Of a stretch of DNA of 64,000 nt, positions 28,567-56,757 are shown one piece after another (position 1 is the first letter of the stretch; each line of letters starts with the position of its first letter). The DNA is from an uncultured Eubacteriales bacterium (GTDB lineage Bacteria; Acidobacteriota; Aminicenantia; Aminicenantales; Aminicenantaceae). The translations under genes were made by a program, and so were the position numbers. Below the pieces are notes generated by a model. It worked only from the letters and a program-made list of their open reading frames with translations, made no database searches and was not told where the DNA came from. The stretch spans positions 21,395-85,394 of the forward strand of contig CAYPGQ010000005.1 of NCBI GenBank assembly GCA_964410125.1, given 5' to 3'.

Positions 28567-30948
28567 ATGCTCAAAATCAGAAAAGGAACTCTTCTTTTTG
28601 CTCTGGAAGTCATAGCCATCTCTTCGTATTTCGCGTATGAAATAGCTCAAAATCAGCTGGATTCAAAACTCTCTCCGACCTTTACTTTTTTTCTATTTTT
28701 CCTGCTTTTATCTGCTGGCTTAGGAGGAATTTTATATTCTCTATTGAAATTTTACTCCCAAAAAATGGCATTATGGCTAGATGTGAGTGCTCAAGAGGTC
28801 AGGCGTTTTACCATCCTTTCTTTTGCTCCTTTTTTTTTTCTTGTGCTGGTGTTCATTCAGAAATTTGTCTTTCTCAATGAAATCAGCCATATTGTTTTGG
28901 TCGTCTCGACCCTTGGCTTCATTTATCTCCATTTGTTTTTTCTCTACCGCTTAAATAGGCAGCAACTAGAGATCTTTCCGAAGCTAAGCCGTGCAAAAAT
29001 CGCTCTTCTCTGTTTTGCCTTTGCAGGTATTGTTTATATCTTGGCAGCTTCTGGTATCTTGTTTACTCCATATCCCATTACTGGGGATGAACCCCATTAC
29101 CTCTTAATTACAAAAAGCCTTATATCCGATGGGGATGTCAATCTTTGGAACAACTACCAGAATAAAGATTATCTGGAATTTTATCCGGGGCGGCTTGACT
29201 CTCATACAACAACAGGTAAAAGAGGTTCCCAGTTCCAATACTCAAGGCATATGCCTGGATTATCTGTTCTGCTTTTGCCTGCTTATGTGGTAGGAACCAG
29301 AATTGGCAAAGTATCGGCATCCGTTTTAAGTAAACCGATGTCTGAAAAGGGCGTTCTGATTCTGGCCATCAGGTTTTTTTTATGTGTCTTAGCCGCGGCT
29401 TTAAGCGGAATGTTCTATTTAGTCGTGGATACCCTGCTGAAAAATCGCAAAGTATCTCTCATCACATGGGGCCTTTTTGGTTTCACGACTCCTCTTTTGT
29501 TCTATTCTTTCCAGATCTATCCCGAAGTAGTCGTCGCGCTCATTTCCATCTCTCTCATGTATCTTATTATTATCAAGTCCGATTGGAGGTTGTCCCGTTT
29601 ATTGCTTGCAGGAATCGGGATCGGGATTTTGCCTTGGTTCGGAATAAAGTATATGGTCATTTCAGCCGGATGTGGTCTTCTGTTTATATTCTCTTTTCTC
29701 AGGCAAAAGCAAAAAATAAAAAATTATTTCTATCTAGCGCTTCCAATTTTCCTTTCGGCTGTTTTTTTTCTATTTTTTCTATGGTCCCTGTATGGGAAAC
29801 TATCTCCCGTGGTTGTTTACAAAGGAACGACTGGAGATGGCAGTGTCTCATTTAATGCTTTATATCATTATAACCCGATCGAGTTCTTGAGGTGTTGGAT
29901 TGGATATTTGTTCGATCAACGAGTCGGCCTTTTCATTTATTCCCCTATTTTTGTTCTGTTTTTTCCAGGTTTGATCCTTTGGTTTAGGAAAAATAAAAAA
30001 GAAGCTTTGTCTTTGTTTTTTCCACTGATCCTGTACTGGGCTTTTTGTTCCCTGAGTTATTATTGGGGAGGCTACTGCCCCCCGGGAAGGACCTTGCTAC
30101 CGGTTTTGTGGATTATGTGTTTGTTCATGGGAGGGGCCATGTATTGGTCTGGGAAGAAAAAGCCTGTTGTCATCATGCATTTATTGGTTGGTCTTTCCTT
30201 TCTGAACACATATCTTCTAGCGCAAAACACACGCCTCCTCTACCACGAAAACCTTTCCTTTCATTGGGCAGAGTCTGGAAAAGTCAGCAATGTGTTGCAT
30301 TCGCTGAGCAATGCCTTCATCGATTTTACGAAGTTCGTTCCTTCGCTGTCCAGCCAGGAAGGAATCACTTGGATCCCGCTATTTTTTTGGATTCTTTTGT
30401 CTCTTTTGATAGGATTTTTCTTCATTAGAAGGGTGCGGAAATCCAATGGACGGATTTTGTGTCAAAAGATAATGGTTCCAATGGGAGCGGTTTTTCTCGT
30501 ATGTGCAGCTGTTGTACTTTATTCTTTTCTAGACATTCGCCTCGATGAACAAAAGTCTTTCCAAACAAAGGATGTTCATGTTTATTTCCAGGATGAAAAT
30601 ACATATGGCCATGAAATGAATGGTTTTTGGACAAAGGGAGCCAGCAAAGCAGAGATTATTGTAAAAAGCCCGAGAAAAGCATCAAGTATCGACTTGAGAC
30701 TGACATGTTCTTCCAGGGGAAAAACGATGGTGCGAGTAGGGAATGCGATTAGAATTTTGGGCAAAAAAAATAACGGAGAATCTGAGATAATGGTTTCCTT
30801 TCCCAAACCTGTGGGATTTGCATGGGGAGGGAATCATTTATATGCGATAAAAATCAGAGGGGAGAGCAGTTTTGTGCCCCGCAAGCGGGATAAGAAGTCA
30901 ACGGATAGCAGGTTTTTGGGGGTATTTGTTAGAGTTGAAGTTAATTAA
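28567..30948 (+). CDS. Large polytopic membrane protein, GT-C-fold glycosyltransferase-like
   Basis: More than 12 predicted TM helices. An acidic TGDEPHY motif in an early extracytoplasmic loop, as in GT-C enzymes (ArnT/PMT-like). A soluble C-terminal domain. It is adjacent to GT-A and GT4 genes. Confidence 0.4.
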   Translation: MLKIRKGTLLFALEVIAISSYFAYEIAQNQLDSKLSPTFTFFLFFLLLSAGLGGILYSLLKFYSQKMALWLDVSAQEVRRFTILSFAPFFFLVLVFIQKFVFLNEISHIVLVVSTLGFIYLHLFFLYRLNRQQLEIFPKLSRAKIALLCFAFAGIVYILAASGILFTPYPITGDEPHYLLITKSLISDGDVNLWNNYQNKDYLEFYPGRLDSHTTTGKRGSQFQYSRHMPGLSVLLLPAYVVGTRIGKVSASVLSKPMSEKGVLILAIRFFLCVLAAALSGMFYLVVDTLLKNRKVSLITWGLFGFTTPLLFYSFQIYPEVVVALISISLMYLIIIKSDWRLSRLLLAGIGIGILPWFGIKYMVISAGCGLLFIFSFLRQKQKIKNYFYLALPIFLSAVFFLFFLWSLYGKLSPVVVYKGTTGDGSVSFNALYHYNPIEFLRCWIGYLFDQRVGLFIYSPIFVLFFPGLILWFRKNKKEALSLFFPLILYWAFCSLSYYWGGYCPPGRTLLPVLWIMCLFMGGAMYWSGKKKPVVIMHLLVGLSFLNTYLLAQNTRLLYHENLSFHWAESGKVSNVLHSLSNAFIDFTKFVPSLSSQEGITWIPLFFWILLSLLIGFFFIRRVRKSNGRILCQKIMVPMGAVFLVCAAVVLYSFLDIRLDEQKSFQTKDVHVYFQDENTYGHEMNGFWTKGASKAEIIVKSPRKASSIDLRLTCSSRGKTMVRVGNAIRILGKKNNGESEIMVSFPKPVGFAWGGNHLYAIKIRGESSFVPRKRDKKSTDSRFLGVFVRVEVN

Positions 30949-36736: not shown

Positions 36737-39283
36737 TTATCCCTTCAATGCTGAAATTAATTCTTTAACACTTTTAAATATGTATTTTTCAAAGTCTTCC
36801 TGACCTACTCTCATGAATGACCACTTACTCCCCGATAGACCCATAGCATCCTTGCACCATTTTTTCATCCTTTTGTCCTTATGCTCAACATCAACATCTT
36901 CTCTTCCTTTTGTTTCAATAATTAATCGTTCGCTCTCGTCAATTGTCACTAAAAAGTCGGGGTAATATAATCTAAGGTTATCCTTTGAATCTTTATACTC
37001 TACAAAGAACCCTATTTTGGGAACGATTTTACTGAAAGCCTCTACATCCTCAGCTCTGTCTAAAAATTTGGCAAAATCTAGCTCAAAATCATTATCACAT
37101 GGCACATAGTTAAAAATGCATCTATTGGCTAAATAAACCAATTTTGACCATACAAAAGGTCTAGTATCCGAGAGTCTTATGACATCCCTCTTTTCGGGCT
37201 CTCTTTCGGTGAAAGTCATATCTCTGAATGCATTTATGAATAAACTTATCAATTGTTCTTGAACTTCAGGAGAACTCAACTTATAAAGAACTCTGGGGTC
37301 TTCAAGGTCCACTTTCTCTGTAAACAATTTTTCCTCAACATATCTTTTCACCACGGGATAAAAACTTGCAAAGGCACCACCTATTTTTAGTTGTTTAAGT
37401 ATCTGGTCTGTATAATAAGCGATTACACTTTTGGAATCCTGAGGCACAGGCAAATCCCATTTTCTCTTTATAACTTCCATCCCTTTGAGCATATCCACAG
37501 CAATATATTCCATTTCTAAGCTTTTATTTTCTAAAGGAATCTTCAAGAAAGTTAGATTATCAATCTCTATTTCATCCAAATAAAATTCTCTTATGAGAAT
37601 TCTTGGACTCAGGATCGGTATTTCAATGTCCTTATCCAATTTATTTTCATCTATAAATATGGTGGTTAAATTAATCGACTTCCTGATGTCAAATTCGGCA
37701 AACTTTATATCTTCCTGATTTTCTAATTCTTCAAGAATATCTATCAGCCCGGGAGGTCCAATGACTTCGAGAACATTTACGGATTTGACTATATTTGCAT
37801 CTTCTTCTGGAAACATCTTCCTTAAGCCTCTTCCAATAACTTGTTCTGGAAGTACTTTTCTTTTTGAAGTATAAGACCGTAGTCCCACAATCACATTTAC
37901 ATTTCTCACATCCCACCCCTCATTTAACATTAATGTGCTGACTATTGCCTCGTAGGGATTTTTTTCAGGGTCAGGGTTATCAATAGTCTTTGCAAACTCT
38001 CTCGCCTTGGGCAAGTCTGCTTTTTTTACTTCTCCAGTACTATCCGTGTGTATCAATAATACTTTATCTTTAAGGTCTGGAACAGCAGAGTTCACATACC
38101 CAAATATTTCGTCTGCCTCCTTGTTCTCAGGGCATTGAAAGAAAAGCACAGGCTTCTTTGATAAGGGTCTCAATGCCTTTTTGTATTCTCGCCATCTTCT
38201 TATTCCCGCATCAATCCATGCTCTATATCTCTCAACAGCTTTAGTTGAAGCAATCTCGGAAGCATCTTTGACTATACCCTTTAGTGGTAATTTTACGATG
38301 TTCATTTCAATTGCTTCCTTGAGTGAGAAGTCCACGACAATCCATGGGAATAGGGCACCGGTCTCAGTTTTAGGCGTAGCCGAGAAGTCCAACTCCATAT
38401 TAATGCCTTTACCGGATTGAGAAACTAGATCTTTGTTAAGACCTAAAAGTATTTTCTTCCATGCCTTTTCAAAACTGTATATATGGTGGGCTTCGTCCTT
38501 CAAAATCATGATATTAGAGCAGGAAGTCAAAACCTCTTTTATTCTATTTTCTTGATAAATATCAGAAACATTATAAACTTCTGGCAATTCCATAACTTTA
38601 TCTACATACTCTTCTACTTCTTTCTTTTTGCTCTGCCGTTGTTCTAACTGCTGAATATTGGTTAAAAATAGCACACCCTCAGGAATAACATGAATTGGGT
38701 CTTCCTTAAGGATTACTTTTAAGTCGAACTCCTCTTGCCATTCTGGTGGAACAATCGGCAATTCTCTAAATATTTTTCCATCCTTAAAATCTCTGCAAAG
38801 CCTATCATAAATGACATTTTTCTCACCAGCGATAACCAGAAACTTGGATGTGTAATCATCTTTGTTTTCTCTCTTATGATTAAAGTAAGACCAGACTGTT
38901 GTTAATATCATCACAAAAGTTTTACCGGAGCCAGTTGCCATCTTGAATGCATAAAGAGGATATTGGTCATAAGAAGGGTCATACCCTTGTATGGGTCCCG
39001 CTCCAAAGTCCCTTGCCATATCTATAAAGTTTCTCTTTTTCATTACTTCATAAACATAAATCAGTGTTTCAATCGCTTCTCTCTGGCAGAACCAGAACTT
39101 GAAAGGCTCACCATCTACAATATGATCTTCACTAAACCAGAATCGCAACAAACGACGGCTGGTATCTGTTATGTTGGGATAGTCGTCTTCTCGCCAAGTG
39201 ATTACTGCTTTTCTTAGTTCATTAACCAAATATGCCTTACTTGGTCGTCTTTGTTCTGGGTGTAAGAGTTCAGTTGATTTCAT
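36737..39283 (-). CDS. Type III restriction enzyme Res subunit (SF2 helicase + PD-(D/E)xK endonuclease)
   Basis: Walker A MATGSGKTFVM, DEAH box ILKDEAHH, helicase motif VI-like VIGRGLR, and a C-terminal IIETKG endonuclease motif. Confidence 0.7.
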   Translation of the reverse strand: MKSTELLHPEQRRPSKAYLVNELRKAVITWREDDYPNITDTSRRLLRFWFSEDHIVDGEPFKFWFCQREAIETLIYVYEVMKKRNFIDMARDFGAGPIQGYDPSYDQYPLYAFKMATGSGKTFVMILTTVWSYFNHKRENKDDYTSKFLVIAGEKNVIYDRLCRDFKDGKIFRELPIVPPEWQEEFDLKVILKEDPIHVIPEGVLFLTNIQQLEQRQSKKKEVEEYVDKVMELPEVYNVSDIYQENRIKEVLTSCSNIMILKDEAHHIYSFEKAWKKILLGLNKDLVSQSGKGINMELDFSATPKTETGALFPWIVVDFSLKEAIEMNIVKLPLKGIVKDASEIASTKAVERYRAWIDAGIRRWREYKKALRPLSKKPVLFFQCPENKEADEIFGYVNSAVPDLKDKVLLIHTDSTGEVKKADLPKAREFAKTIDNPDPEKNPYEAIVSTLMLNEGWDVRNVNVIVGLRSYTSKRKVLPEQVIGRGLRKMFPEEDANIVKSVNVLEVIGPPGLIDILEELENQEDIKFAEFDIRKSINLTTIFIDENKLDKDIEIPILSPRILIREFYLDEIEIDNLTFLKIPLENKSLEMEYIAVDMLKGMEVIKRKWDLPVPQDSKSVIAYYTDQILKQLKIGGAFASFYPVVKRYVEEKLFTEKVDLEDPRVLYKLSSPEVQEQLISLFINAFRDMTFTEREPEKRDVIRLSDTRPFVWSKLVYLANRCIFNYVPCDNDFELDFAKFLDRAEDVEAFSKIVPKIGFFVEYKDSKDNLRLYYPDFLVTIDESERLIIETKGREDVDVEHKDKRMKKWCKDAMGLSGSKWSFMRVGQEDFEKYIFKSVKELISALKG

Positions 39284-40439
39284 CGCTTGTCACCTTGCAT
39301 CGGGGTATGGATAATATAAATTCCGTTTCCGTTGCATTTAACTTAATCTCTTTGTTTAATCTTTCTCTTATCGTTTTAATCATTCTGGGAACACCACTAC
39401 CGATATCTGTTACCATCCCAATTTTCAAAAGTAGATTATAAATAGTTGGATTTCGAAGGACATGACAGGATATCTTCATGCTATCTATAGTAACTGTATT
39501 AGGTAACCTTCCTGGCGTTCTGATTTCTATTCTGTCCTCAAATATGAATAATCTTATCGGAGCATTAATTGTATAATCTCGATGAGCTATCGCATTTACA
39601 ATCCCTTCTCTTAAAACTTTTTCAGGAATTTCAGGGTATAATTCTGATTCAAAACCTTTTATTTTGTGTTCTTCCTTTATATACAACTTCAGAAATTTTA
39701 ATGAGTTCTCAAGTATATCCGGAATTTTTGCTTCTAAATCTTTTTTATCAGATGGAGGAATAGAAACATCTATACCAGGTATGTAAGCGGCTATAATCTT
39801 TGCGTATGGAATAAATTGCTGAGGGTTTTTTCCAAAAAATAATATCCCAGCAATTGTAAGTTTTTTCTTATTTGTAATAACTTTAAGATTTTTGAGATAA
39901 TTCTCAATTAAACTTTCTTCTGGAGAAATATCTAAATATTTCTCCAGAAAATATATAAAGTAATCCATGTTAAGGCTGCCAAGTGGGGTTTTAGAGATAG
40001 GGGTCTCGTCATAATAAATGCTTCCGCTTGTTTGATAAAGCCTCCTAACTTCTAGCCATGAGGCTTGCCTACATCTATTCCCTGACTTAATATAATAAAG
40101 ACCACTTTTTGTTCGATAAGGTCTTTGCTCCCCTTTAGGAATATTGATAATTAAAACAATTTCACCATCCATATCCACTGTTTCTGGGAGAATACTAATA
40201 GGAGATTCACATCTATTGAATGCAACATCATCAATCTTTCTTACTGCTTCATCCAAATCTTCAACTCCTACAATATCACCTGAGTTGCCAATACCAATTA
40301 TTAATTGCCCACCATCTGTATTTGCAAAACAGACAATTGATTTTGCGAGAGTTTCATTATCAGGTAATCTTTCCTTGAACTCGGTATGTAAATTTTCACC
40401 TTTTAATATTTTTTCCTGTAGTTCCAATGTATCCATCAA
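39270..40439 (-). CDS. AlbA_2 / Schlafen-like divergent-AAA protein with a C-terminal HATPase-like domain
   Basis: N-terminal NLHTEFKERLPDNE...IVCFANTDGGQLIIGI is typical of the AlbA_2 domain. The C-terminal domain resembles HATPase_c_4. Its start overlaps the upstream gene by 4 nt and its end overlaps res. Confidence 0.55.
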   Translation of the reverse strand: MMDTLELQEKILKGENLHTEFKERLPDNETLAKSIVCFANTDGGQLIIGIGNSGDIVGVEDLDEAVRKIDDVAFNRCESPISILPETVDMDGEIVLIINIPKGEQRPYRTKSGLYYIKSGNRCRQASWLEVRRLYQTSGSIYYDETPISKTPLGSLNMDYFIYFLEKYLDISPEESLIENYLKNLKVITNKKKLTIAGILFFGKNPQQFIPYAKIIAAYIPGIDVSIPPSDKKDLEAKIPDILENSLKFLKLYIKEEHKIKGFESELYPEIPEKVLREGIVNAIAHRDYTINAPIRLFIFEDRIEIRTPGRLPNTVTIDSMKISCHVLRNPTIYNLLLKIGMVTDIGSGVPRMIKTIRERLNKEIKLNATETEFILSIPRCKVTSDEIN

Positions 40440-43159
40440 ACTCCCCCATATTTTTCTGCTCTTATTCTGAATGCTTCTTCTCCACCTTCCATAATATTTT
40501 TTACATCTGCCCTAATATCTTCTTTATCAATAGAGCCTTTGTTATTAATAACGCACCTTTCATTTTTAGTCTCTAAAACAAGAACCAATTCAGAGTCTCC
40601 TAAGACAGGGATGTTCGCATTATGTGTAGCAATAAATAATTGTCTTTTCCCCTTTATTTCTCTAAGGATTTTCACTACGTCCTCGTATATAAAACGGTTA
40701 TCAAGGTCCTCTTCAGGCTGGTCAAGAACAACAATCCTATCCTCTTGAGCAAATAGAAGCAATAATAAGGCAGTAGCTTTTTGACCAATAGAAAGTTTAT
40801 TAATTAATTTATATTCTTCATTCACTTTCAAAAATATTTCAATTTTGTCCTCGGGAAAAAAAGTTTCAAGCTCATAAAGTCTTTCGGAATCTTTAAACCA
40901 TTCTAATATTCTACTGGACATTGCCTGAGTGAGATTGAATTCTTCACGCAATTTCTGCTCATTACCCTTGATATATTGGGAAAGCAGAAGACCATCGGTA
41001 ACTTTATTGGGTGATTTAACCAACGCTTCAATAGCATCGCTTGAAACTTTTGAGCCTTTTAATAAGTTTTTTAAATCTTCCATAAAGTTGTCTCTTTCTT
41101 CTTCATATTTCACCTCAATTTTGAGTCTTCCTTTTAAGGCATCGTTTATTTTTTCAAGTTGTTCTTTTCTTATATTAAAAATATCATGCCTCTTCTTACC
41201 TATTTTATTCTTCGATTTCTCCCTATCATTTTCCAATTTTTCAATTTCCATTTCTAGCCTTATTAATTCTTCAATTAACGGTATTAACTTTGCCCTTTCC
41301 TTAGTCAATCTTTCGAGTTCGTCTGGTTTAAGTCCTTTCTCGGCCAATTCTTTTTTTATTTTTTGAATTTTTGTTTCTACTTTTTTCTTTTTTTCTAACC
41401 ATTCAGCATACAAGCCTTCAATACTTTTTCTGGTCTGGTCTGTTGTCTTGGAAAGCTGTTTTTTACTTTGCTCAAATGCTCTTTTAATTTGACTTATCTC
41501 TCCAGCTACCTTTTCCAGTATAAATTTATTTTCACTCTTGCCTCTCTTTAAATTATTTTCTAAATAGTTTAGTTCGGATGCAGATTCATCAAAAAAGAAA
41601 AGCATTTTTTCGTTTATTCCATCAAGTTTTTCAATTGCATCTTGTAATTTTTCTTCATCATCTACTATGTTAGTCCACCTTCTGAGTCTTTCTTCTACTT
41701 TCATACCTTTATAAACTTTTATTCCTGCTTCTATTCCCTTTAATCTTTGCTCATACTCTTCCCTTTTTCTCGTCTTTTCTTTAAGAGCTAAAAGCTTTCT
41801 TCCATTTTCTCTTAATTGTTCAATTAACCTCTTGAATTCCTCATGTAAATGCCTTATCCTCTCTCCTATTAATTCATCAATTAATTGGAGTTGAAAAGTA
41901 GGGGTAATAGAAAGAAAATAGAGTTCCTTTTGACCTATTATAATCGGATATTTTGCTTCTTCGAACAAACTCTGTATAGAAAAACCTGTCTTCACACCAC
42001 TTTCATCAATAATTTCTGTATCTTTCCCTATTGTCCTTTTTATCTCGAATTCCTTTTTCTCTTTTCCATAATATCTTTCAATAAAGACAGAAAGCTCCCC
42101 TCCACTTCCAACAACACTCTCTACAAAATCCATTCGGAAAGATTTATCTGCATAAATTGGTAAATCCATAACATATCGCATAGTTTCTATGATAGCCGAT
42201 TTACCCACACCCCTTCCTCCAATAAATGTATTTAGTTCAGGATTGAATAAAATTTCTATATCCCTCAGAAAAGTTGAGCCATTGATTAGTATCTTTGATA
42301 TTCTATTATGATAAAAAGAAGGACATTCATAAGTCTTCACCCTTACTTCTGGGTCGTGTAGAGCTATTTTTAAAGCACCAATGTTAAAAGAACTTAATTT
42401 ATAATATGTGGTTCTTAATTTACCATCCCTCTTTTTAGTGCCTATATCGTCAAGACTTTTAGGGTCAGTATTTTCAAGGATTGCTATTTTTTTAAAATAA
42501 TCAGATGGAAGTTCATTTGTAGATATAAGTTTATTTTTTCCTTCCTCAGAGATATATTCAATAGCATCAGGCTTTACATTCATCAAATACTTTGCAGATT
42601 GGGAAGGATTATAAGTATGAAGAAGTCCTTTATCATTTTCTAGGTGTGGAAATACAACCAAACATTTATATTTTTCTCGAATTTTACTTATCAACTTTTC
42701 CAGTTCTAATTCACTTTCAATATCTCTATGTTTTCTTCCGTCAACTAAGGATTTTTGTGGATTCTTGTCTAAACTGTGTAGAAATGTATTTAAACCTTTA
42801 ATATCCACATTTTGCTCAAAAATTAACAACAAATGAAGACCATATTTCCCACTTAATTTTAATGAAAGCTCAACTCCTGGAAATATTACAATTCCTTTAT
42901 CTTTAGCCTTATTCTTTATTAACTCAAACCAATCCTTTCTCAATCCGTTATAATCTGTAATAGCTCCTATCTTAATCTGCGCTTCTTGTATTTTCTTTAT
43001 ATATTCTTCTACTAATTTTTCACACTCGTTATTGGAATCTAAATTAATCCCTGGTGGTAATGTAAGACTTTCTACACCTGGAGAATGCAGATGTAAATCT
43101 GTCTTCACCCAATTTGCCCCATTATAACTTTTGTCATTCATAGTAATTAACTCTTTCAT
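40436..43159 (-). CDS. PHP-domain phosphoesterase fused to a Rad50/SMC-like ABC ATPase with a long coiled coil
   Basis: N-terminal DLHLHSPG and FPGVELSL PHP motifs. Walker A IGGRGVGKSAII at about residue 316. A coiled coil of about 350 aa. C-terminal signature SIGQKATALLLLLFA, Walker B VVLDQPEEDLD and H-loop IATHN. Confidence 0.5.
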   Translation of the reverse strand: MKELITMNDKSYNGANWVKTDLHLHSPGVESLTLPPGINLDSNNECEKLVEEYIKKIQEAQIKIGAITDYNGLRKDWFELIKNKAKDKGIVIFPGVELSLKLSGKYGLHLLLIFEQNVDIKGLNTFLHSLDKNPQKSLVDGRKHRDIESELELEKLISKIREKYKCLVVFPHLENDKGLLHTYNPSQSAKYLMNVKPDAIEYISEEGKNKLISTNELPSDYFKKIAILENTDPKSLDDIGTKKRDGKLRTTYYKLSSFNIGALKIALHDPEVRVKTYECPSFYHNRISKILINGSTFLRDIEILFNPELNTFIGGRGVGKSAIIETMRYVMDLPIYADKSFRMDFVESVVGSGGELSVFIERYYGKEKKEFEIKRTIGKDTEIIDESGVKTGFSIQSLFEEAKYPIIIGQKELYFLSITPTFQLQLIDELIGERIRHLHEEFKRLIEQLRENGRKLLALKEKTRKREEYEQRLKGIEAGIKVYKGMKVEERLRRWTNIVDDEEKLQDAIEKLDGINEKMLFFFDESASELNYLENNLKRGKSENKFILEKVAGEISQIKRAFEQSKKQLSKTTDQTRKSIEGLYAEWLEKKKKVETKIQKIKKELAEKGLKPDELERLTKERAKLIPLIEELIRLEMEIEKLENDREKSKNKIGKKRHDIFNIRKEQLEKINDALKGRLKIEVKYEEERDNFMEDLKNLLKGSKVSSDAIEALVKSPNKVTDGLLLSQYIKGNEQKLREEFNLTQAMSSRILEWFKDSERLYELETFFPEDKIEIFLKVNEEYKLINKLSIGQKATALLLLLFAQEDRIVVLDQPEEDLDNRFIYEDVVKILREIKGKRQLFIATHNANIPVLGDSELVLVLETKNERCVINNKGSIDKEDIRADVKNIMEGGEEAFRIRAEKYGGV

Positions 43160-45198
43160 TTTATCTTCACCTTCAAAACTTTATTTGTGTCATTCCCAAA
43201 CACATCCACAACTTTTGTCATTATCTGATATTCCCCTGCCTCTTCGTATTTGTGTCTAGCTTCATACTCTACTTTTGGATTCTTCTTCATCCTGAAACTC
43301 TGCCATTGATTATGAAAAGTATCGCCTTTGTAACCCCAGTCAATCGCCCAGTAGTCTATGAGCTCTCTTGAATCCTTTACCTTACAAGCGATTTCTGCAA
43401 GCTCCGCAGTTGGTGCAAGCTGAAAGTCTGTGATTTTCAGTTCTACTTCTTCCTTTTTCATTTTTGTTTCAATCTCCAAATAGGCAACTTCTGGGAATCT
43501 CACATATTTAGACAGTTCTTTTTCAATAACATCATCCCTTATTTTCAATAGTTGCAGGTCGAAACCCACTAAAGAAGATTTGATTTCATTCACTGATGGT
43601 ATTTGAACCAATTTCAAATCAACTCCGTTTTTCTTTGCTAATTCTTTTGCCAGCTCATTTACCTCATAACTCCACTCCCAGCCCAAAACATCTGCCTTAT
43701 TGAAATTATTGCTTTTACATTCAATTACAACCTTCTCAACTTCTTCCATCGTAACAGGAGCGTTCAAAGGACCAACATGTACTGCCCTCTCTCCTTTCCT
43801 TCCATGCAAATATCTAAACCCTGTTAGAGGTTGAGATTGATAGAGTTTGAGCATAAAAGCGAGGTATTCATCCTCTCTTTCCTGCCAGTAAACTGTTTCA
43901 TAATTTCCGATATTCCAGAGTTCAAAAGGTTTTGCTGGCTTTTCATAATTCTTTTTGTTTTCATCTTGTAAATCCTTTGAATTGTGAATATCTAAAAGCC
44001 TCTTTCTTGTAATTTGAATCGCAAACTTGGATAAATCAGAGCCTATCCATCTTCTACCGAGTTTCTCTGCAACCGCTAAAGTTGTGCCGGAACCGCAGAA
44101 GAAGTCAGCTACAATATCGCTTGGGTTAGAAGATGCAAGAATGACGCGTTTCAGGAGAGCTTCGGGTTTTTGAGTATCGAAGTCTAAACGCTCTGCACTG
44201 TTTGCTGAAATCGGAGCAACTTCATCATCTTTCCAAAGGTCCCCCAAGTAATTGCCTGCTTTTTCATCCAAGTATCTCTTTATCCTTGGGAGGCCGGATG
44301 ACGTAAAAATAATTTGCCCTTCGTCCATGGCTTTGTTAATCTTTTCTTGGTCCCAAATCCAATGTTTACCCGGTGGCGGATACAATAGCTTATCTCCGAA
44401 ATAACGTGGCGGGCCGCTTCCTTTCTGTGTAAAATCGAAAGAACCGTATCTCCGTCCGCTTTCCTCCTCTACATATGGGTAAACCTCCTCATCTTTTTCT
44501 CCTCTAATAAATTGTGGGTTGAAAATAGCACTGTTAGACTTTGAGTATATTAAGAGCATGTCCTTAACGTTACTGAAGAATTTGCTCTGGACTTTTGCAG
44601 CAGTCAGTTTGCGCCAAGTGATTTCATTTCTAAAATTCTCATACCCAAAAATTTCATCCATCATTACCTTAACATAATGTCCCACATGCCAGTCTAAATG
44701 CACATAAATAGAACCATTCTCAGCCAATAACCCCCTAATCAAAACCAATCGTTCGTACATATACTTGAGATAAGAAGCAATGCCACCGCTCCATGTATCT
44801 TTGTATGCTCGCTCTTCAATTATAGACGGCTCTTTTTCTATTCTCTCGTCTCCGAGTTTTGTTCTAATGGTAAAATCTGCTCCAGTAAAAAAGGGTGGGT
44901 CAATATATATCAGATTTATCTTACCAGCCCAGCCCTGCTTTATTAGAGAACTCATCACAAGCTTGTTATCCCCCCAGATGAGTTTGTTTTTCCAGTCCTT
45001 TGAATAGTTCTCAGGATACTCATTCTCCGGGAATAGTGAAACTGTATATCCTCCCTTAATTCTAGGTTTATTTACTGTTTCCACTACTTGAAAGGGAAGA
45101 TTTGGTTTCTCAACAGGTATCTTTTCCCCTTTCTCATATTTATCATATTTTTCTTCCCAAAGCAGCTCCACATATTTTTTGTTATGTGCCATATTCAT
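43156..45198 (-). CDS. Type III R-M Mod subunit (beta-class N6-adenine DNA methyltransferase)
   Basis: Motif IV IYIDPPF precedes motif I FFCGSGTT, which is the beta-class order typical of Mod proteins. Length 680 aa. The stop overlaps the next gene by 4 nt. Confidence 0.75.
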   Translation of the reverse strand: MNMAHNKKYVELLWEEKYDKYEKGEKIPVEKPNLPFQVVETVNKPRIKGGYTVSLFPENEYPENYSKDWKNKLIWGDNKLVMSSLIKQGWAGKINLIYIDPPFFTGADFTIRTKLGDERIEKEPSIIEERAYKDTWSGGIASYLKYMYERLVLIRGLLAENGSIYVHLDWHVGHYVKVMMDEIFGYENFRNEITWRKLTAAKVQSKFFSNVKDMLLIYSKSNSAIFNPQFIRGEKDEEVYPYVEEESGRRYGSFDFTQKGSGPPRYFGDKLLYPPPGKHWIWDQEKINKAMDEGQIIFTSSGLPRIKRYLDEKAGNYLGDLWKDDEVAPISANSAERLDFDTQKPEALLKRVILASSNPSDIVADFFCGSGTTLAVAEKLGRRWIGSDLSKFAIQITRKRLLDIHNSKDLQDENKKNYEKPAKPFELWNIGNYETVYWQEREDEYLAFMLKLYQSQPLTGFRYLHGRKGERAVHVGPLNAPVTMEEVEKVVIECKSNNFNKADVLGWEWSYEVNELAKELAKKNGVDLKLVQIPSVNEIKSSLVGFDLQLLKIRDDVIEKELSKYVRFPEVAYLEIETKMKKEEVELKITDFQLAPTAELAEIACKVKDSRELIDYWAIDWGYKGDTFHNQWQSFRMKKNPKVEYEARHKYEEAGEYQIMTKVVDVFGNDTNKVLKVKIK

Positions 45199-48868: not shown

Positions 48869-50785
48869 TCATTGGTGAAGGTTTCTTAAGGGAAAAATCC
48901 TCTCGAAAAACTTATTGAAGACAGTTATTTGGTAAAGGGAGTACAATTCTGCTTTTTCAAGCTCTCCTGTCCAGTCTGATTGGAAAGATTCGTTGTGTAG
49001 CACACTTTTTTCAGGCAGTGCCAAAACAAAGGATTCATCTGCAACTAAAATTGAGTACACCTCTTCCCAGCCCGCGCGAGAAAAAAGCAAAGAAATGAAG
49101 AGACGCATCCACTCTTTTTCTTTGTGCCCAAAGTATAAAAGGAAAATAGCATGGGAATCTTTCAAATGTGCGTATAGAGGATTTCTTGTGGACTTATTGC
49201 CAATATCCATACTTAAAAAATCCATCGATAGATAGTGAGGAGGATCGGCTATAATAAGATTGTAATCTCCGTAATAAATATCGTTGGGTTCTTCTAACGG
49301 TGGTTGCTTTTTATAGTGATTTGTCAACGAAAATATATCAGCAGGCACGATATGAGCTGCACTTGAGACTTTCTCATTATACGGAAAAGGATTTTTATCT
49401 ATACTAGCAATGTTCAGCTGTTCGTCTGATGATCCCCGTAGGAAACACTCATTTAGACCTGTTCCGGAAAAAAGACTAAGTATCTTTAGATTATTTTTAT
49501 TTTTAATTGCTTGTACTACAGATAAGGAGATATATCCTAAAAGCGGAGAGGGGCCGACTTGCTCTGAATATCTATAAACCAAATCTAGCTCGTTTTCCCT
49601 CAATTGTACACCAAGTTTCTCAAATTTCTTTCTGTAGATCCCCAAAACAGAATCATCAGAGACTTCATTCTTTGTCCATTCATATAAGTTAACATCCATA
49701 GCTTCAGTCACCTCAATCGTTGGCGAGATAAAAACATCTACCCTTATCTTTAGTTTATCCACCGGAATTACATTTGTCTTTTCGGTAACTTTCAATTCTT
49801 TACATTGAAGAGCCTCCAAATAACCTTTCATCCAACCATTTAAGTATTCCTCTATTTTATTTAATATCATCGCTGAGTCACTATATAGAAAATTGTATCC
49901 ATCTTTGTTAGAGATATATAGTCTTATTATTAGAACATACGCTGGATGCTTCGGTGAATTTTTGTTACCTATTCGCTCTACCACAAATAAATTGTGTCCA
50001 ATATTATCAACGCTGACTATATCCCTCTTATTCCGAACTTTTATCATATTCTCAACATATCGGTTGGCTTCTCCTTTAAGATGATTAACAAAGTCTTTAT
50101 TGGATATGCAGAAGCGTTTATAGCTCTTTTTATATTCCAAACAAAAATTATATGTAGAGTGAATAACTTCCATAATCCTTTTACATAGAATCTTAAGCTC
50201 CTCATCATACTTATACATATCCGTATATTCTTCCTCTAAAACAAGGGCAATTCCCCCAAGAGTCCCATGTGAATAAATCGCAAATTTAAAGTTTTCATAT
50301 TTTTCCTTTTGAACAGTTAAAAAAGAATACGCTGTAGAAACCACACTATGCTTATAAGTCAAATCTTGAATATCACCAACCAGTTCAAAGTTTTTCCATG
50401 TAGATGGAGATTCCAATTTAAATCCTGCCGGAATGGGTTTTTTTATGCCAAAATGTCTAAGTTTTTCTTCGCTCCTCAGTGCAATATGTTTGTCCCAATA
50501 AATTTTTAAGAAGTCCGCGTACTTTTTTTGGGTTTCTTCCTTTATATTGCCAGTGTAAACGAGTTTTCTATCAGACCTTTTGTAATGGATCCCTCCTATA
50601 GTAATTCCTATAATTTTAAACTTCTTTTGTATAGATTCCCATCGTTTTTCCGCGATGCATTTAACTGGATTGTCGGTTTTATTATTATGCGACAACAAAT
50701 CTCTCCTTATTGTATCCACTATCGCACTTTCGAAAGAAAGGAGAGCTTCTTTTCTTAATTGTAGTTTTTGGTCATTGACACCCAT
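48869..50785 (-). CDS. Hypothetical 638-aa protein with a C-terminal amino-methyltransferase-like domain (FSGTG ... DPPH)
   Basis: The C-terminal third carries LSLFSGTGLNE (motif I-like) followed about 80 aa later by NLIIADPPHY (a (D/N)PPY-type motif IV, gamma-class order). The N-terminal 400 aa resemble nothing I recognise. Confidence 0.4.
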   Translation of the reverse strand: MGVNDQKLQLRKEALLSFESAIVDTIRRDLLSHNNKTDNPVKCIAEKRWESIQKKFKIIGITIGGIHYKRSDRKLVYTGNIKEETQKKYADFLKIYWDKHIALRSEEKLRHFGIKKPIPAGFKLESPSTWKNFELVGDIQDLTYKHSVVSTAYSFLTVQKEKYENFKFAIYSHGTLGGIALVLEEEYTDMYKYDEELKILCKRIMEVIHSTYNFCLEYKKSYKRFCISNKDFVNHLKGEANRYVENMIKVRNKRDIVSVDNIGHNLFVVERIGNKNSPKHPAYVLIIRLYISNKDGYNFLYSDSAMILNKIEEYLNGWMKGYLEALQCKELKVTEKTNVIPVDKLKIRVDVFISPTIEVTEAMDVNLYEWTKNEVSDDSVLGIYRKKFEKLGVQLRENELDLVYRYSEQVGPSPLLGYISLSVVQAIKNKNNLKILSLFSGTGLNECFLRGSSDEQLNIASIDKNPFPYNEKVSSAAHIVPADIFSLTNHYKKQPPLEEPNDIYYGDYNLIIADPPHYLSMDFLSMDIGNKSTRNPLYAHLKDSHAIFLLYFGHKEKEWMRLFISLLFSRAGWEEVYSILVADESFVLALPEKSVLHNESFQSDWTGELEKAELYSLYQITVFNKFFERIFPLRNLHQ

Positions 50786-53019: not shown

Positions 53020-53562
53020 TCAATGATCCTGGGCCATAATTCCGACTTTTCTCAACTGTTCCTTAAGATATTGCTCACTCCTGTTCAATATACCCTTGAA
53101 GTGTTTCCGAACCACAATATCAAATTTAGGACAAAGTTGACTTTCCAAATCCTTCATCCGGTTAGGCCTTAAACTTTCAATCAACATCTCTCTTGTTGGG
53201 ATTTCATCCATCGGGATTTTCGCAAGAATCCAGTTTTCAAGAGGGGCAAGACGTAAGACTGCTATAACAGGTTGGTAGCCATCGTGAGTACGGTCACGAA
53301 GAGCCTGCACATTATCAGTGGTGAGAGGAATTGATAATTTCTCTGTGGTTTTTACCTCAACTGCAAACTTTTGATTAGATTCCGATGTTATATCAATATC
53401 AACTCCTTGCACGCCTCGTTCTACAATATTAGTAAAGCCCATTTCATGGAAGCTGAGAGCCAGTAGTTTTTGTACAATTTTGCCAAAAGGTCCAGATGGT
53501 GTACCTTTGATTCCAAACTTTTTCTGCAACTTCTGTAAAAGTTCAAGAGTTTCTACTTTCAT
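53020..53562 (-). CDS. Small PD-(D/E)xK-fold nuclease-like protein
   Basis: GVDIDITSESNQKFAVEVKT matches the D-x(n)-E-x-K restriction-endonuclease-like core. Its start is 3 nt after the upstream ATPase stop. Confidence 0.4.
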   Translation of the reverse strand: MKVETLELLQKLQKKFGIKGTPSGPFGKIVQKLLALSFHEMGFTNIVERGVQGVDIDITSESNQKFAVEVKTTEKLSIPLTTDNVQALRDRTHDGYQPVIAVLRLAPLENWILAKIPMDEIPTREMLIESLRPNRMKDLESQLCPKFDIVVRKHFKGILNRSEQYLKEQLRKVGIMAQDH

Positions 53563-53564
53563 AA

Positions 53565-55742: not shown

Positions 55743-55754
55743 CGTCTACCTTCA

Positions 55755-55940
55755 TCATAGCGTTTTTTCAAGATTCTCAAGTAGTTGTTCATAATCCTTT
55801 TTGATTTTATCTATTCGAGAGTTGAGCGTTGATTTTATCTGCTCAACTCCACCTTGTTCATAGGATTCGCATATTTCTTGCCAGAGATTTCTCAATTTCT
55901 CTTCTTTTATTTCTTTTTGAACTTTTTCTTTATAGGTCAT
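55755..55940 (-). CDS. Small (61 aa) charged coiled-coil protein
   Basis: Short ORF 12 nt upstream of the ATPase gene. Helical, K/E-rich. Confidence 0.3.
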   Translation of the reverse strand: MTYKEKVQKEIKEEKLRNLWQEICESYEQGGVEQIKSTLNSRIDKIKKDYEQLLENLEKTL

Positions 55941-55997
55941 AGATTTCTCCTTTATCTCTTAATTTGTAGCTCCAATTGATAATTATCAGCGATTTCA

Positions 55998-56010
55998 TAA
56001 CACCGTGTTA
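55998..56010. promoter_or_regulatory. Perfect 6-1-6 palindrome TAACAC-C-GTGTTA upstream of the small-protein / Rad50-like ATPase operon
   Basis: Read directly from the sequence. Partner site at 45298..45310. Confidence 0.25.
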
Positions 56011-56034
56011 TGTGATAGGCAATCAATTTCAATT

Positions 56035-56625: not shown

Positions 56626-56757
56626 ATATATTCCTCCCTATTGAGTGCCTTTCATATAACGTTCCTAGCATAAAACAAGTTTTTGTAAATTAAATATATG
56701 GGTGAGTACCACCAGGCATGAACCTTTTGTGCTATGTTAGGCGATGTCCACACCCTC

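What the first reader, a model, noticed from the sequence alone, without database searches (positions are those of the whole stretch)
40436..43159. Unusual architecture: PHP phosphoesterase domain fused N-terminally to a Rad50/SMC-like ABC ATPase
The sequence shows PHP motifs (DLHLHSPG, FPGVELSL) in the first 250 aa or so. These are followed by Walker A (GGRGVGKS), a coiled coil of about 350 aa, and C-terminal signature / Walker B / H-loop motifs (LSIGQKAT, VVLDQPEEDLD, IATHN). In SbcCD/Mre11-Rad50 the phosphoesterase nuclease is a separate calcineurin-like subunit. A single-chain PHP-Rad50-like protein inside an R-M operon is not an arrangement I can assign to a named defence family.
Basis: partly seen in the sequence, partly recalled or inferred. 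Interest (0 to 1): 0.7.

Follow-up and report, generated by a model that had tools for sequence, protein, structure and literature searches.

The report
TrlF/Ppl-type PHP–ATPase inside restriction operon
The gene really does encode a PHP phosphoesterase fused to an SMC/Rad50-like ATPase, but it belongs to an already named family (TrlF, a relative of the anti-phage protein Ppl), and it travels with a Schlafen-type partner gene as a two-gene cassette that repeatedly sits inside restriction-modification operons.

Summary
An AlphaFold model of residues 1-285 matches only PHP domains among its significant PDB hits. The remainder matches SMC/Rad50/RecF/RecN heads with a helical insert of about 240 aa.

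The interpretation "cannot be assigned to a named family" is wrong. The protein passes NCBIfam's TrlF model (481 bits, cut-off 350). It aligns end to end with the anti-phage protein Ppl model, but stays below that model's cut-off. About 1,240 50%-identity clusters are related at E<=1e-30.

- **Partner gene.** The downstream gene is TrlG, a Schlafen/AlbA_2-HATPase_c_4 protein with an intact Ex4ExK RNase motif. It directly follows TrlF in 39 of 79 related genome loci.
- **R-M context.** The TrlF-TrlG pair is nested in or next to Type III, Type I, Eco57I-type, PglZ-linked and DUF1156 restriction-modification loci, including HsdR-TrlF-TrlG-HsdS in 38 E. coli genomes.
- **PHP metal site.** This clade keeps the six ligands of the two-metal core invariant. 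It has replaced all three ligands of the third metal with S31, Y70 and K234.

The most likely function is a Ppl-like defence module that backs up restriction. That function is inferred, not shown.

The parts
40436..43159 (-). trlF: 907-aa PHP-ABC(SMC-like) ATPase, TrlF family, Ppl relative
   Evidence: ORF. NF045780 481 bits, above the 350 cut-off, full length. PADLOC Ppl E=3e-48. AF2 pLDDT 86.6.
42332..43120 (-). PHP phosphoesterase domain (residues ~14-276). Ligands H23, H25, E97, H109, H172, D232 are kept. The third-metal positions are S31, Y70, K234.
   Evidence: Domain model pLDDT 91.6. Top 27 PDB fold hits are all PHP domains. Profile alignment to TM0559. Ligand table over 177 sequences.
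41870..42304 (-). ABC ATPase N-lobe (residues ~286-430): Walker A G314-S321, Q-loop Q410
   Evidence: Pfam SMC_N/AAA_23/AAA_15 sub-threshold hits. Invariant columns. Fold hits to SMC/Rad50/RecF heads.
41138..41863 (-). Helical/coiled-coil insert (residues ~433-674): five long helices, rich in E/K/L, no Cys
   Evidence: DSSP of the AF2 model. Composition and Cys positions.
40445..41125 (-). ABC ATPase C-lobe (residues ~679-905): signature LSIGQ 789-793, Walker B D813 followed by Q814-P-E816, H-loop H846
   Evidence: PDB sequence hits to ABC/SMC/Rad50/AriA at this segment.
39270..40439 (-). trlG: 388/389-aa prokaryotic Schlafen (AlbA_2) + HATPase_c_4 partner, with catalytic-type motif E15-x4-E20-x-K22. 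The start is either TTG at 40439 or ATG at 40436 (TGATG overlap with the trlF stop).
   Evidence: Pfam AlbA_2 83.7 bits and HATPase_c_4 64 bits. Sequence. Motif present in 38/38 homologues. Same two domains as Photorhabdus TrlG. JGI gene calls.
43156..45198 (-). Type III-like DNA methyltransferase (mod), 680 aa; its stop overlaps the trlF start by 4 nt
   Evidence: Pfam N6_N4_Mtase 161 bits. PADLOC MTase_III 356 bits. Overlap.
36737..39283 (-). Type III-like restriction subunit (res), 848 aa: ResIII helicase + C-terminal RE_endonuc; overlaps trlG by 14 nt
   Evidence: Pfam ResIII 50 bits, RE_endonuc 23.5 bits; NCBIfam BPTD_3080-family partial match; PADLOC REase_III. A 33%-identical homologue sits directly next to its methyltransferase, with no trlFG between them, on an Aminobacter plasmid.

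Best explanation
**Identity (about 0.9).** The ORF encodes a TrlF-family protein. A PHP metal-dependent phosphoesterase is fused in one chain to an SMC/Rad50-like ABC ATPase. The ATPase head is split by a helical insert of about 240 aa. The protein is homologous over its whole length to the single-gene anti-phage protein Ppl.

**Cassette (about 0.85).** Together with the next gene, trlG, it forms a two-gene cassette. TrlG has a Schlafen/AlbA_2 RNase-type domain with an intact Ex4ExK motif, a histidine-kinase-like ATPase domain and a C-terminal region. The pair is inherited as a unit. Here it is nested, translationally coupled, between the mod and res genes of a Type III-like R-M system on a low-GC island.

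**Mechanism (about 0.45; all steps inferred).**
1. TrlF acts like Ppl: nucleotide binding holds the protein in check, and DNA ends or 3' overhangs engage the head and helical arms.
2. Its PHP centre, here probably two-metal with K234 in place of the third-metal histidine, hydrolyses nucleic-acid phosphodiester bonds.
3. TrlG is the partner effector or switch, and its RNase activity stops growth.
4. Placement inside R-M operons makes the pair a second layer. It would either work on ends produced by restriction or fire when restriction fails.
For: - **Family.** NF045780 scores 481.4 bits against a cut-off of 350, spanning 13-905 of the protein and 1-944 of the model. The Ppl model matches 14-902 vs 1-880 at 239 bits. 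PADLOC Ppl gives E=3e-48.
- **Fold.** PHP for residues 1-285; SMC/Rad50/RecF/RecN heads for the rest.
- **Ligands.** H23, H25, E97, H109, H172 and D232 are invariant in 25 homologues and kept in all but 2 of 147 sequences of this clade.
- **Ppl function.** Ppl is a defence gene and a PHP 3'-5' ssDNA exonuclease gated by NTP depletion and 3'-OH ends (review PMC12904381; citation of Xu et al. 2026; phage counter-gene).
- **Partner.** TrlG lies directly downstream in 39 of 79 genome loci. These are nearly all complete loci with at least 31% TrlF identity, plus four at about 27%. Divergence of the two proteins correlates with rho=0.91, n=28. The same pair occurs on Pseudomonas, Klebsiella, E. coli and Yersinia plasmids.
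- **TrlG catalytic motif.** The motif defined for anti-phage bacterial Schlafens is present here and in 38/38 homologues.
- **Growth arrest.** The Photorhabdus TRL operon arrests growth at 36-37 C, and point mutations in trlG relieve it.
- **R-M nesting.** Of 27 TrlFG loci with sequence on both sides, 15 have R-M-type genes on both sides and 5 on one side. Types include Type III, Type I, Eco57I/MmeI-type, PglZ-linked and DUF1156. HsdR-TrlF-TrlG-HsdS occurs on an IncC plasmid and in 38 of 5,426 E. coli genomes.
- **Optional insert.** The window's own type of mod-res pair exists without the insert.
- **Operon and island.** Gene overlaps are 4, 4(1) and 14 nt. Island GC is 31-38% against 38-48% in the flanks.
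Against: - No experiment exists on this protein or on any TrlF-TrlG pair as a phage defence.
- The protein fails the Ppl equivalog cut-off (239 vs 1000 bits), so Ppl's biochemistry may not transfer.
- Three of the nine canonical PHP ligands are replaced, so catalysis is unproven.
- Q814 occupies the position of the catalytic Glu after the Walker B Asp. ATP hydrolysis may therefore be slow, absent, or carried out by E816/E817.
- In Photorhabdus no suppressor mutations fell in trlF, so TrlF's contribution to the phenotype is unknown.
- Seven of 27 fully visible TrlFG loci have no recognisable R-M neighbour, and some plasmids carry the pair alone. Coupling to R-M is therefore not obligatory.
- The site between R-M genes may simply be an insertion hotspot, as others suggested for hsdS/hsdR.
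Confidence: 0.6

Rival explanations
1. TrlFG is an autonomous defence or abortive-infection cassette. It lands between R-M genes only because those junctions are permissive recombination hotspots in defence islands. There is no physical or functional coupling with the methyltransferase or the restriction subunit.
For: - The pair occurs alone on a Pseudomonas plasmid and in 7 of 27 fully visible genome loci.
- It sits in at least five unrelated R-M types. That is easier to explain by mobility than by specific protein contacts.
- DarTG2 occupies the same hsdS/hsdR slot, and the authors of that work propose a hotspot.
- Ppl works as a single gene.
Against: - Tight translational coupling: 4-nt and 1-4-nt overlaps with the flanking R-M genes here and on the IncC plasmid.
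- 15 of 27 loci are flanked on both sides, on the same strand.
- This does not exclude the rival. It argues only for co-expression.
Confidence: 0.35
2. The PHP domain of this clade is not a nuclease. It is a degenerate or nucleotide-binding regulatory module. TrlF is purely a sensor ATPase, and the Schlafen RNase TrlG is the only effector, as in the AriA-AriB pair of PARIS.
For: - All three third-metal ligands are replaced by S/T31, Y70 and K234 in the TrlG-linked clade. TrlG-less relatives that score best on the Ppl model keep all nine.
- A TrlG-less WOR-3/Stahlbacteria clade has lost nearly all ligands. This shows the scaffold can survive without catalysis.
- In Photorhabdus only trlG mutations relieve the growth arrest.
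- NTPs are reported to bind Ppl's PHP domain.
Against: - The six ligands of the binuclear core are invariant across the clade. Such conservation is hard to explain without metal binding.
- K234 is itself conserved and could stand in for the third metal.
Confidence: 0.2
3. TrlFG is a stress-responsive growth-arrest module, as described for temperature restriction in Photorhabdus, and is not primarily an anti-phage system.
For: The only direct phenotype for a TrlF-TrlG operon is growth arrest at 36-37 C, relieved by trlG mutations or by deleting the operon.
Against: - The context here and in most loci is R-M/BREX-like defence genes, plasmids and a low-GC island.
- Homology to the defence protein Ppl and to anti-phage Schlafens.
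- Heat-triggered toxicity is a known side effect of abortive-infection systems (general knowledge).
Confidence: 0.1
4. It is a housekeeping SbcCD/Mre11-Rad50-like DNA repair enzyme in which a PHP nuclease replaces Mre11.
For: SMC/Rad50-type head plus a metal phosphoesterase. Source annotations call homologues 'DNA repair ATPase RecN'. Fold hits include Rad50 and RecN.
Against: - Patchy distribution on plasmids and islands.
- GC content lower than the surrounding genes.
- Always found in defence contexts.
- Short helical insert with no CxxC hook.
- Its closest named relatives, TrlF and Ppl, are not repair proteins.
Confidence: 0.03

Closest known systems
TrlF of the Photorhabdus laumondii Temperature Restricting Locus (NCBIfam NF045780, 'TrlF family AAA-like ATPase')
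   Same: Passes the family's curated cut-off over its full length. It has a PHP ('histidinol phosphatase'-annotated) N-terminus plus a large ATPase. It is followed by a TrlG protein with the same AlbA_2 + HATPase_c_4 domains.
   Different: There is no 79-aa TrlR/RptR-type regulator in the window. The pair is nested in a Type III-like R-M operon rather than standing alone between polA and dsbA. No phenotype is known here. Plasmid TrlFs from Proteobacteria and Listeria are only about 27-28% identical to it, and they carry N-H where this clade has D-Y in the 'TDH' motif.
Ppl (Gao et al. 2020 single-gene anti-phage system; Xu et al., Mol Cell 2026; NCBIfam NF042955, PADLOC Ppl)
   Same: Same end-to-end architecture and clear homology. 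Ppl is reported to be a PHP 3'-5' ssDNA exonuclease with an NTPase domain, activated by NTP depletion and 3'-OH ends. This is the best available model for how TrlF works.
   Different: The score is far below the Ppl equivalog cut-off (239 vs 1000 bits). Ppl acts alone, whereas this protein has a conserved Schlafen partner. Relatives scoring highest on the Ppl model keep all nine PHP ligands, but this clade has S31/Y70/K234 at the third-metal positions. No Ppl structure turned up in the PDB copies searched.
SbcCD / Mre11-Rad50
   Same: An SMC-type ABC head interrupted by a helical arm, combined with a metal-dependent phosphoesterase that would act on DNA ends. Fold hits include Rad50.
   Different: The nuclease is a PHP domain fused in cis, not a separate calcineurin-like subunit. 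The arm is about 240 aa with no Cys and no zinc hook. Q occupies the Walker B catalytic-Glu position. The genomic context is defence, not repair.
Restriction-linked ABC-ATPase nucleases PrrC/RloC, and PARIS (AriA-AriB)
   Same: The logic is similar. An ABC ATPase sensor is linked to an RNA-cleaving effector, either encoded inside R-M loci (PrrC, RloC) or triggered by anti-restriction proteins (PARIS). ABC-family relatedness shows in the PADLOC AriA/LmuB/GajA hits and the PDB AriA hit. Background comes and from general knowledge.
   Different: The effector domains are unrelated: Schlafen and PHP here, against an anticodon-nuclease domain or TOPRIM there. No trigger is known for TrlFG, and no test of membership was met.
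Prokaryotic Schlafens (pSlfn, HisKinase/HisKinase-HTH class), for the partner TrlG
   Same: AlbA_2 domain with the Ex4(E/D)xK motif plus a histidine-kinase-like ATPase domain. The same architecture is reported to be linked to BREX and related loci in at least 1,017 taxa and is viewed there as a backup effector.
   Different: Neither paper read here mentions 'PHP', so neither describes the PHP-ATPase partner. The experimentally proven pSlfns have other fusions, Ig-like and DUF262.
DarTG2 embedded in a Type I R-M island regulated by RptR
   Same: A second defence module sits between R-M genes. [quoted passage not shown] Judging by its PGAP names, this is the TrlG-TrlF pair.
   Different: The proteins are different. 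There is no RptR-like gene here, and the host system is Type III rather than Type I.

Membership tests
TrlF family AAA-like ATPase (NCBIfam NF045780) | Whole-protein score at or above the curated cut-off (350 bits), with a full-length match | tested here: met
   481.4 bits, residues 13-905 vs model 1-944/944.
TrlF family AAA-like ATPase (NCBIfam NF045780) | N-terminal PHP-type phosphoesterase domain | tested here: met
   Fold search: all 27 hits at E<=1e-3 are PHP domains. Profile hit to TM0559 at E=2.6e-8. Pfam PHP itself is sub-threshold at 20.3 vs 26.4 bits.
TrlF family AAA-like ATPase (NCBIfam NF045780) | ABC/SMC-type ATPase motifs (Walker A, Q-loop, signature, Walker B, H-loop) | tested here: met
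   G314-S321, Q410, S790-Q793, D813 and H846 are invariant in 25 homologues. Q814 replaces the usual catalytic Glu.
TRL operon (Photorhabdus trlF-trlR-trlG) | Adjacent TrlG (AlbA_2 + HATPase_c_4) | tested here: met
   Window 39270-40439: AlbA_2 83.7 bits, HATPase_c_4 64 bits. Same domains as published for TrlG.
TRL operon (Photorhabdus trlF-trlR-trlG) | Small (79 aa) TrlR regulator in the operon | tested here: not met
   No small HTH-like ORF between or beside the four genes.
TRL operon (Photorhabdus trlF-trlR-trlG) | Temperature-induced growth arrest | not testable with these tools
   This is a phenotype known only from the paper.
Ppl anti-phage protein (NCBIfam NF042955 / PADLOC Ppl) | Equivalog score of at least 1000 bits | tested here: not met
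   239.5 bits. PADLOC Ppl 162.6 bits, E=3e-48. The protein is homologous to Ppl but not an equivalog.
Ppl anti-phage protein (NCBIfam NF042955 / PADLOC Ppl) | Single-gene system | tested here: not met
   A conserved partner, TrlG, lies directly downstream in 39 loci.
Ppl anti-phage protein (NCBIfam NF042955 / PADLOC Ppl) | 3'-5' ssDNA exonuclease activity inhibited by NTPs; phage protection | not testable with these tools
   Known only from the literature.
Canonical trinuclear PHP active site | Nine ligands: HxH, D/H(+6), H of 'TDH', E, H, H, DxH | tested here: not met
   Six are kept (H23, H25, E97, H109, H172, D232). The three assigned to the third metal are S31, Y70 and K234. Assignment of ligands to metals rests on my memory of the YcdX structure, not on a tool result.
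Mre11-Rad50 / SbcCD | Long antiparallel coiled coil with a CxxC zinc hook | tested here: not met
   The helical insert is about 240 aa with no Cys between residues 280 and 868.
Mre11-Rad50 / SbcCD | Separate calcineurin-like (Mre11/SbcD) nuclease subunit next to the ATPase | tested here: not met
   The neighbours are a methyltransferase, TrlG and Res. No Metallophos hit was found.
Type III R-M system (operon context) | Mod: beta-class N6/N4 methyltransferase. Res: SF2 helicase with a C-terminal PD-(D/E)xK-type endonuclease. | tested here: met
   N6_N4_Mtase 161 bits and PADLOC MTase_III 356 bits. ResIII 50 bits, RE_endonuc 23.5 bits (cut-off 23.4), PADLOC REase_III. The Res match to the NCBIfam BPTD_3080 family is only partial.
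Prokaryotic Schlafen nucleases (for TrlG) | Ex4(E/D)xK catalytic motif in the Schlafen/AlbA_2 domain | tested here: met
   E15-NLHT-E20-F-K22. Present in 38/38 TrlG homologues. Motif definition.
PrrC / RloC restriction-linked anticodon nucleases | C-terminal anticodon-nuclease domain on the ABC ATPase | tested here: not met
   No PrrC or RloC model hit in PADLOC, Pfam or NCBIfam. This is an analogy only.

The most novel reading that the evidence does not exclude
TrlF-TrlG is an uncharacterised two-protein immune module that works together with methylation-based restriction systems of many types. TrlF would be a Ppl-like SMC-type ATPase whose PHP centre has been remodelled to two metals plus a lysine. 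It would sense DNA ends made by restriction, or the failure of restriction, and it would switch on the Schlafen RNase TrlG. That would link DNA restriction to tRNA/RNA-level shut-down in one operon.
Probability: 0.3. Interest if true: 0.6.

Novelty: new member of a known kind. Interest (0 to 1): 0.35.

Why it matters
On its own, the gene is an ordinary member of a named and fairly large family. Its closest studied relative, Ppl, already has a proposed mechanism.

What may be worth following up is the cassette and its context. TrlF is almost always paired with a Schlafen-type protein. The pair is repeatedly wired into Type I, Type III, Eco57I-type, PglZ-linked and DUF1156 restriction loci, including IncC resistance plasmids and 38 complete E. 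coli genomes. Yet in the literature I could search, it appears only as a 'temperature restriction' operon and, in passing, as a pair 'of unknown function'.

The consistent replacement of the third-metal ligands in the partnered clade gives a concrete, testable difference from Ppl. If the pair proves to be a restriction-linked backup, it would be another example of layered immunity of the PrrC or PARIS kind. It would also place bacterial Schlafens, the most common class of which is untested, in a defined system.

Tried and rejected
- **First 'TrlF' literature search.** It returned only TRLFS spectroscopy papers. A whole-word search then found the Photorhabdus paper.
- **Solved Ppl/TrlF structure.** A single-sequence search and a profile search of PDB sequences found only generic ABC/SMC/Rad50/AriA chains. 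Foldseek with the full model found no PHP-ATPase fusion.
- **Key papers not held.** Xu et al. 2026 (Ppl mechanism) and Krishnan et al. 2020 (ABC ATPase classification) are not in the library. Ppl's biochemistry is therefore cited second-hand from a review.
- **Promoter/terminator scan of the island.** It found no more sites than the shuffled controls, so the operon is inferred from gene overlaps only.
- **Island borders.** There are no flanking direct or inverted repeats beyond chance and no adjacent tRNA, so the borders and the insertion mechanism remain undefined.
- **Model coordinates.** They are not available to scripts. I could not measure metal-site geometry or see how the PHP domain packs on the ATPase head.
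- **SbcCD-like repair enzyme.** Considered and rejected on context, distribution and the missing hook (see rival explanations).
- **Lamassu LmuB, PARIS AriA, Gabija GajA, MADS mad3.** Considered as family assignments. The PADLOC hits are weak (E between 1e-6 and 1e-12) and restricted to the ATPase core.

Full report
**Observation.** The finding's coordinates match an ORF on the minus strand, 40436..43159, 907 aa with an ATG start. The plus-strand translation is full of stops. The same protein, 100% identical, occurs on several metagenome contigs with the same neighbours.

**Named family.** NCBIfam places the protein in the 'TrlF family AAA-like ATPase' model NF045780. It scores 481 bits against a curated cut-off of 350, with residues 13-905 aligned to model positions 1-944. 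The 'anti-phage protein Ppl' model NF042955 also aligns end to end (14-902 vs 1-880), but at 239 bits against a cut-off of 1000. PADLOC's Ppl model gives E=3e-48. LmuB, AriA, GajA, PtuA and mad3 match only weakly, and only on the ATPase core. Pfam sees sub-threshold SMC_N, AAA_21, AAA_23, AAA_15 and PHP hits, which explains source annotations such as 'DNA repair ATPase RecN'. The family is large. An exhaustive HMMER scan of 1.84 billion cluster representatives found 1,244 proteins at E<=1e-30, and most of the best 150 align from about residue 10-20 onward, so they include the PHP domain. RefSeq plasmids carry many genes already labelled TrlF.

**Structure of the ATPase part.** A full-length AlphaFold model (25-sequence alignment, pLDDT 86.6, pTM 0.71) shows four parts: a mixed alpha/beta domain at 14-276, an ABC N-lobe at 286-430, five long helices at 433-674, and an ABC C-lobe at 679-905 with a helical sub-domain. 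Its PDB matches are SMC, condensin, MukB, JetC, Rad50, RecF and RecN heads with coiled coils. The helical insert is about 240 aa rather than 350 and has no Cys, so there is no Rad50-type zinc hook.

**Structure of the PHP part.** A separate model of residues 1-285 (pLDDT 91.6, pTM 0.89) has 27 PDB hits at E<=1e-3, and all are PHP domains. They include TM0559, RNase AM, BVU_3505, the PHP domains of Pol III alpha and PolC, BAD_1165 and Cv1693. A sequence profile of the domain hits TM0559 at E=2.6e-8 and more weakly RNase AM, BAD_1165 and YcdX.

**Metal ligands.** In 25 homologues of 47-90% identity, D21, H23, H25, D69, E97, H109, H172 and D232 are invariant. I aligned 177 sequences, including relatives at 20-27% identity, and used the TM0559 and Ppl-like sequences as guides. 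The canonical nine PHP positions map as follows.

| Canonical position | Residue in this protein |
|---|---|
| HxH | H23, H25 |
| D/H at +6 | S31 |
| His of 'TDH' | Y70 |
| Glu | E97 |
| His | H109 |
| His | H172 |
| DxH | D232, K234 |

From my memory of the YcdX structure, the three substituted positions are exactly the ligands of the third metal, and the six retained ones build the binuclear core. I did not verify this with a tool. The S/T-Y-K pattern is nearly universal in the clade that carries the partner gene. TrlG-less relatives that score highest against the Ppl model (L063, L069, L072, L079) keep all nine ligands. A TrlG-less WOR-3/Stahlbacteria clade has lost almost all of them. Even so, this is a variant PHP site, and activity is not guaranteed.

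**Walker B.** The motif reads LDQPEEDLD and is invariant. Gln sits where ABC ATPases normally have the catalytic Glu. This could mean slow or no hydrolysis, or use of E816/E817 instead.

**The partner gene.** The next gene, 39270-40439 on the minus strand, overlaps the trlF stop as TGATG if the ATG start is used. It has Schlafen/AlbA_2 (83.7 bits) and HATPase_c_4 (64 bits) domains. These are the two domains published for TrlG of the Photorhabdus laumondii Temperature Restricting Locus. That operon is trlF ('histidinol phosphatase'), trlR (79 aa) and trlG. Its induction at 36-37 C arrests growth, and point mutations in trlG relieve the arrest. The window's TrlG carries E15-x4-E20-x-K22, the Ex4(E/D)xK catalytic motif defined for anti-phage bacterial Schlafens that cleave tRNA. 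All 38 TrlG homologues from related loci have the motif. Among 79 genome loci encoding TrlF relatives, TrlG lies directly downstream in 39. These are nearly all complete loci with at least 31% TrlF identity, plus four at about 27%. Similarity of the two proteins to the window's copies co-varies (Spearman 0.91, n=28). Shared ancestry of the genomes contributes to that figure. The best plasmid matches to TrlG all lie next to a gene annotated as TrlF.

**Context in the window.** The four genes run mod, trlF, trlG, res. Mod (43156-45198) is an N6_N4 methyltransferase of PADLOC MTase_III type. Res (36737-39283) is a ResIII helicase with RE_endonuc and matches PADLOC REase_III. The overlaps are 4, 4(1) and 14 nt. 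The genes sit between a Liv-type ABC transporter and surE. Island GC is 31-38% against 38-48% in the flanks. A 33%-identical Res sits directly beside its methyltransferase on an Aminobacter plasmid with no insert between them. So trlFG is an optional insertion into this type of R-M.

**Context elsewhere.** The flanks differ in other loci, but most are still methylation-based defence genes.

| Flanking system | Loci or records |
|---|---|
| Window-type mod/res | L006-L010 |
| Larger N6_N4 methyltransferase plus a 1,000-aa ResIII protein | seven loci |
| Eco57I/MmeI-type methyltransferases, one with a PLD-SNF2 helicase | L014, L015, L023, L028, L037 |
| SNF2 + NOV_C helicases, DUF1156 methyltransferases, a PglZ-like gene | L012, L013, L016, L019, L022, L050 |
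| Type I HsdS/HsdR | L017, L018, L029 |

Of 27 TrlFG loci with sequence on both sides, 15 have such genes on both sides on the same strand, 5 on one side and 7 none. Seven truncated loci show one on the visible side. An IncC NDM plasmid carries HsdR-TrlF-TrlG-HsdS-AAA-HsdM with 4-nt overlaps, and the same allele is in 38 of 5,426 complete E. coli genomes. The pair also occurs alone on a Pseudomonas plasmid, and TrlF occurs alone on Listeria plasmids.

**What is already known.**
- Ppl was reported as a single-gene defence with PHP and ATPase domains.
- A 2026 review summarises it as a ssDNA 3'-5' exonuclease. It is activated when NTP depletion relieves NTP binding to both domains and when 3'-OH ends made by phage homing endonucleases are detected (primary paper cited, not readable here).
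[quoted passage not shown] By its PGAP names this is TrlG-TrlF.
- A BREX survey reports Schlafen + minimal histidine kinase + wHTH proteins next to BREX-type loci in at least 1,017 taxa as putative backup effectors. It does not contain the term 'PHP'.
- 'Guilt by embedding' is an established idea.
- So the protein family, the partner's family and embedding in R-M have each been seen before. Within the library I could search, the TrlF-TrlG pair has not been characterised as one system, and its remodelled PHP site has not been described.

**Most likely mechanism.**
- Shown: fold, family, conserved ligands, conserved partner, co-transcription-compatible nesting in R-M operons, and mobility across R-M types.
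- Inferred by homology to Ppl: nucleotide-gated recognition of DNA ends by a dimeric SMC-like ATPase, and hydrolysis by the PHP centre.
- Inferred from Schlafen work and the Photorhabdus phenotype: TrlG is an RNase-type effector that arrests growth.
- Inferred from context only: the pair is a second layer for restriction, acting on restriction-made ends or firing when restriction is blocked, as with PrrC, RloC and PARIS.
- My confidence is about 0.9 for identity, 0.85 for the two-gene cassette, 0.45 for the Ppl-like mechanism and 0.3 for true functional coupling with R-M.
- The main rivals are an autonomous cassette in an insertion hotspot, and a non-catalytic PHP domain with TrlG as the sole effector.

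**Verdict.** The interpretation 'unassignable and unusual' is not supported. This is a new member of a known kind. Interest is moderate to low for the gene itself. The R-M-nested TrlF-TrlG cassette and its two-metal-type PHP site are a reasonable lead for experiments.

Noticed in passing
window 53020-58236 (- strand): A second SMC-like defence candidate lies about 10 kb away. The 725-aa ORF 53565-55742 matches PADLOC LmuB (the Lamassu SMC ATPase) over its full length at E=1e-49. It is followed by a 180-aa ORF (53020-53562). Upstream are a 196-aa ORF (56035-56625) and a 492-aa HNH-domain protein (56758-58236). The region may therefore be a defence island.
   Followed up: partly
window 48869-50785 (-) and 28567-30948 (+): Two large ORFs (638 aa and 793 aa) have no Pfam hit at E<=1e-5 and no PADLOC hit. 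The 638-aa one sits between the Liv transporter genes and is conserved on the related contigs.
   Followed up: no
L054-L062, L064 (candidate division WOR-3 / Stahlbacteria): This clade of TrlF-family proteins has no TrlG, and its PHP motifs are degenerate (D-A-K for D-H-H, R for the Glu, D/N for the His residues). It sits in its own conserved neighbourhood. It looks like a PHP-inactivated offshoot of the family.
   Followed up: partly
L086:9004-10167 (E. coli IncC plasmid) and L085:8595-9752 (P. avellanae plasmid): The TrlG partners on these proteobacterial plasmids read EDSRHQFK / EDSRQQFK. Gln replaces the second acidic residue of the Schlafen Ex4(E/D)xK motif, whereas all 38 genome-locus homologues keep E or D. 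This may be an inactive or altered RNase in that branch.
   Followed up: partly
window 40700-40732 (TrlF residues 810-820): The Walker B region is LDQPEEDLD and is invariant across the family, including distant plasmid members. Gln occupies the position of the ABC catalytic Glu, which is the classic hydrolysis-dead E-to-Q state in engineered ABC proteins.
   Followed up: partly
L053:2033-4783 and L053:9969-12779 (Rhodobacteraceae MAG): Two TrlF-family genes lie within 13 kb on one contig. Only the first is followed by a TrlG.
   Followed up: no
window 40436-40439: The trlG start is ambiguous. The mechanical ORF list uses TTG at 40439 (389 aa, 4-nt overlap). The public gene calls use the ATG at 40436 (388 aa), which gives a TGATG stop/start overlap with trlF.
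   Followed up: yes
L034:5895-7184: In one locus without R-M neighbours, the gene two upstream of TrlF-TrlG is an AAA_21/AAA_15 (OLD/Abi-type) ATPase, which is another defence-type neighbour.
   Followed up: no
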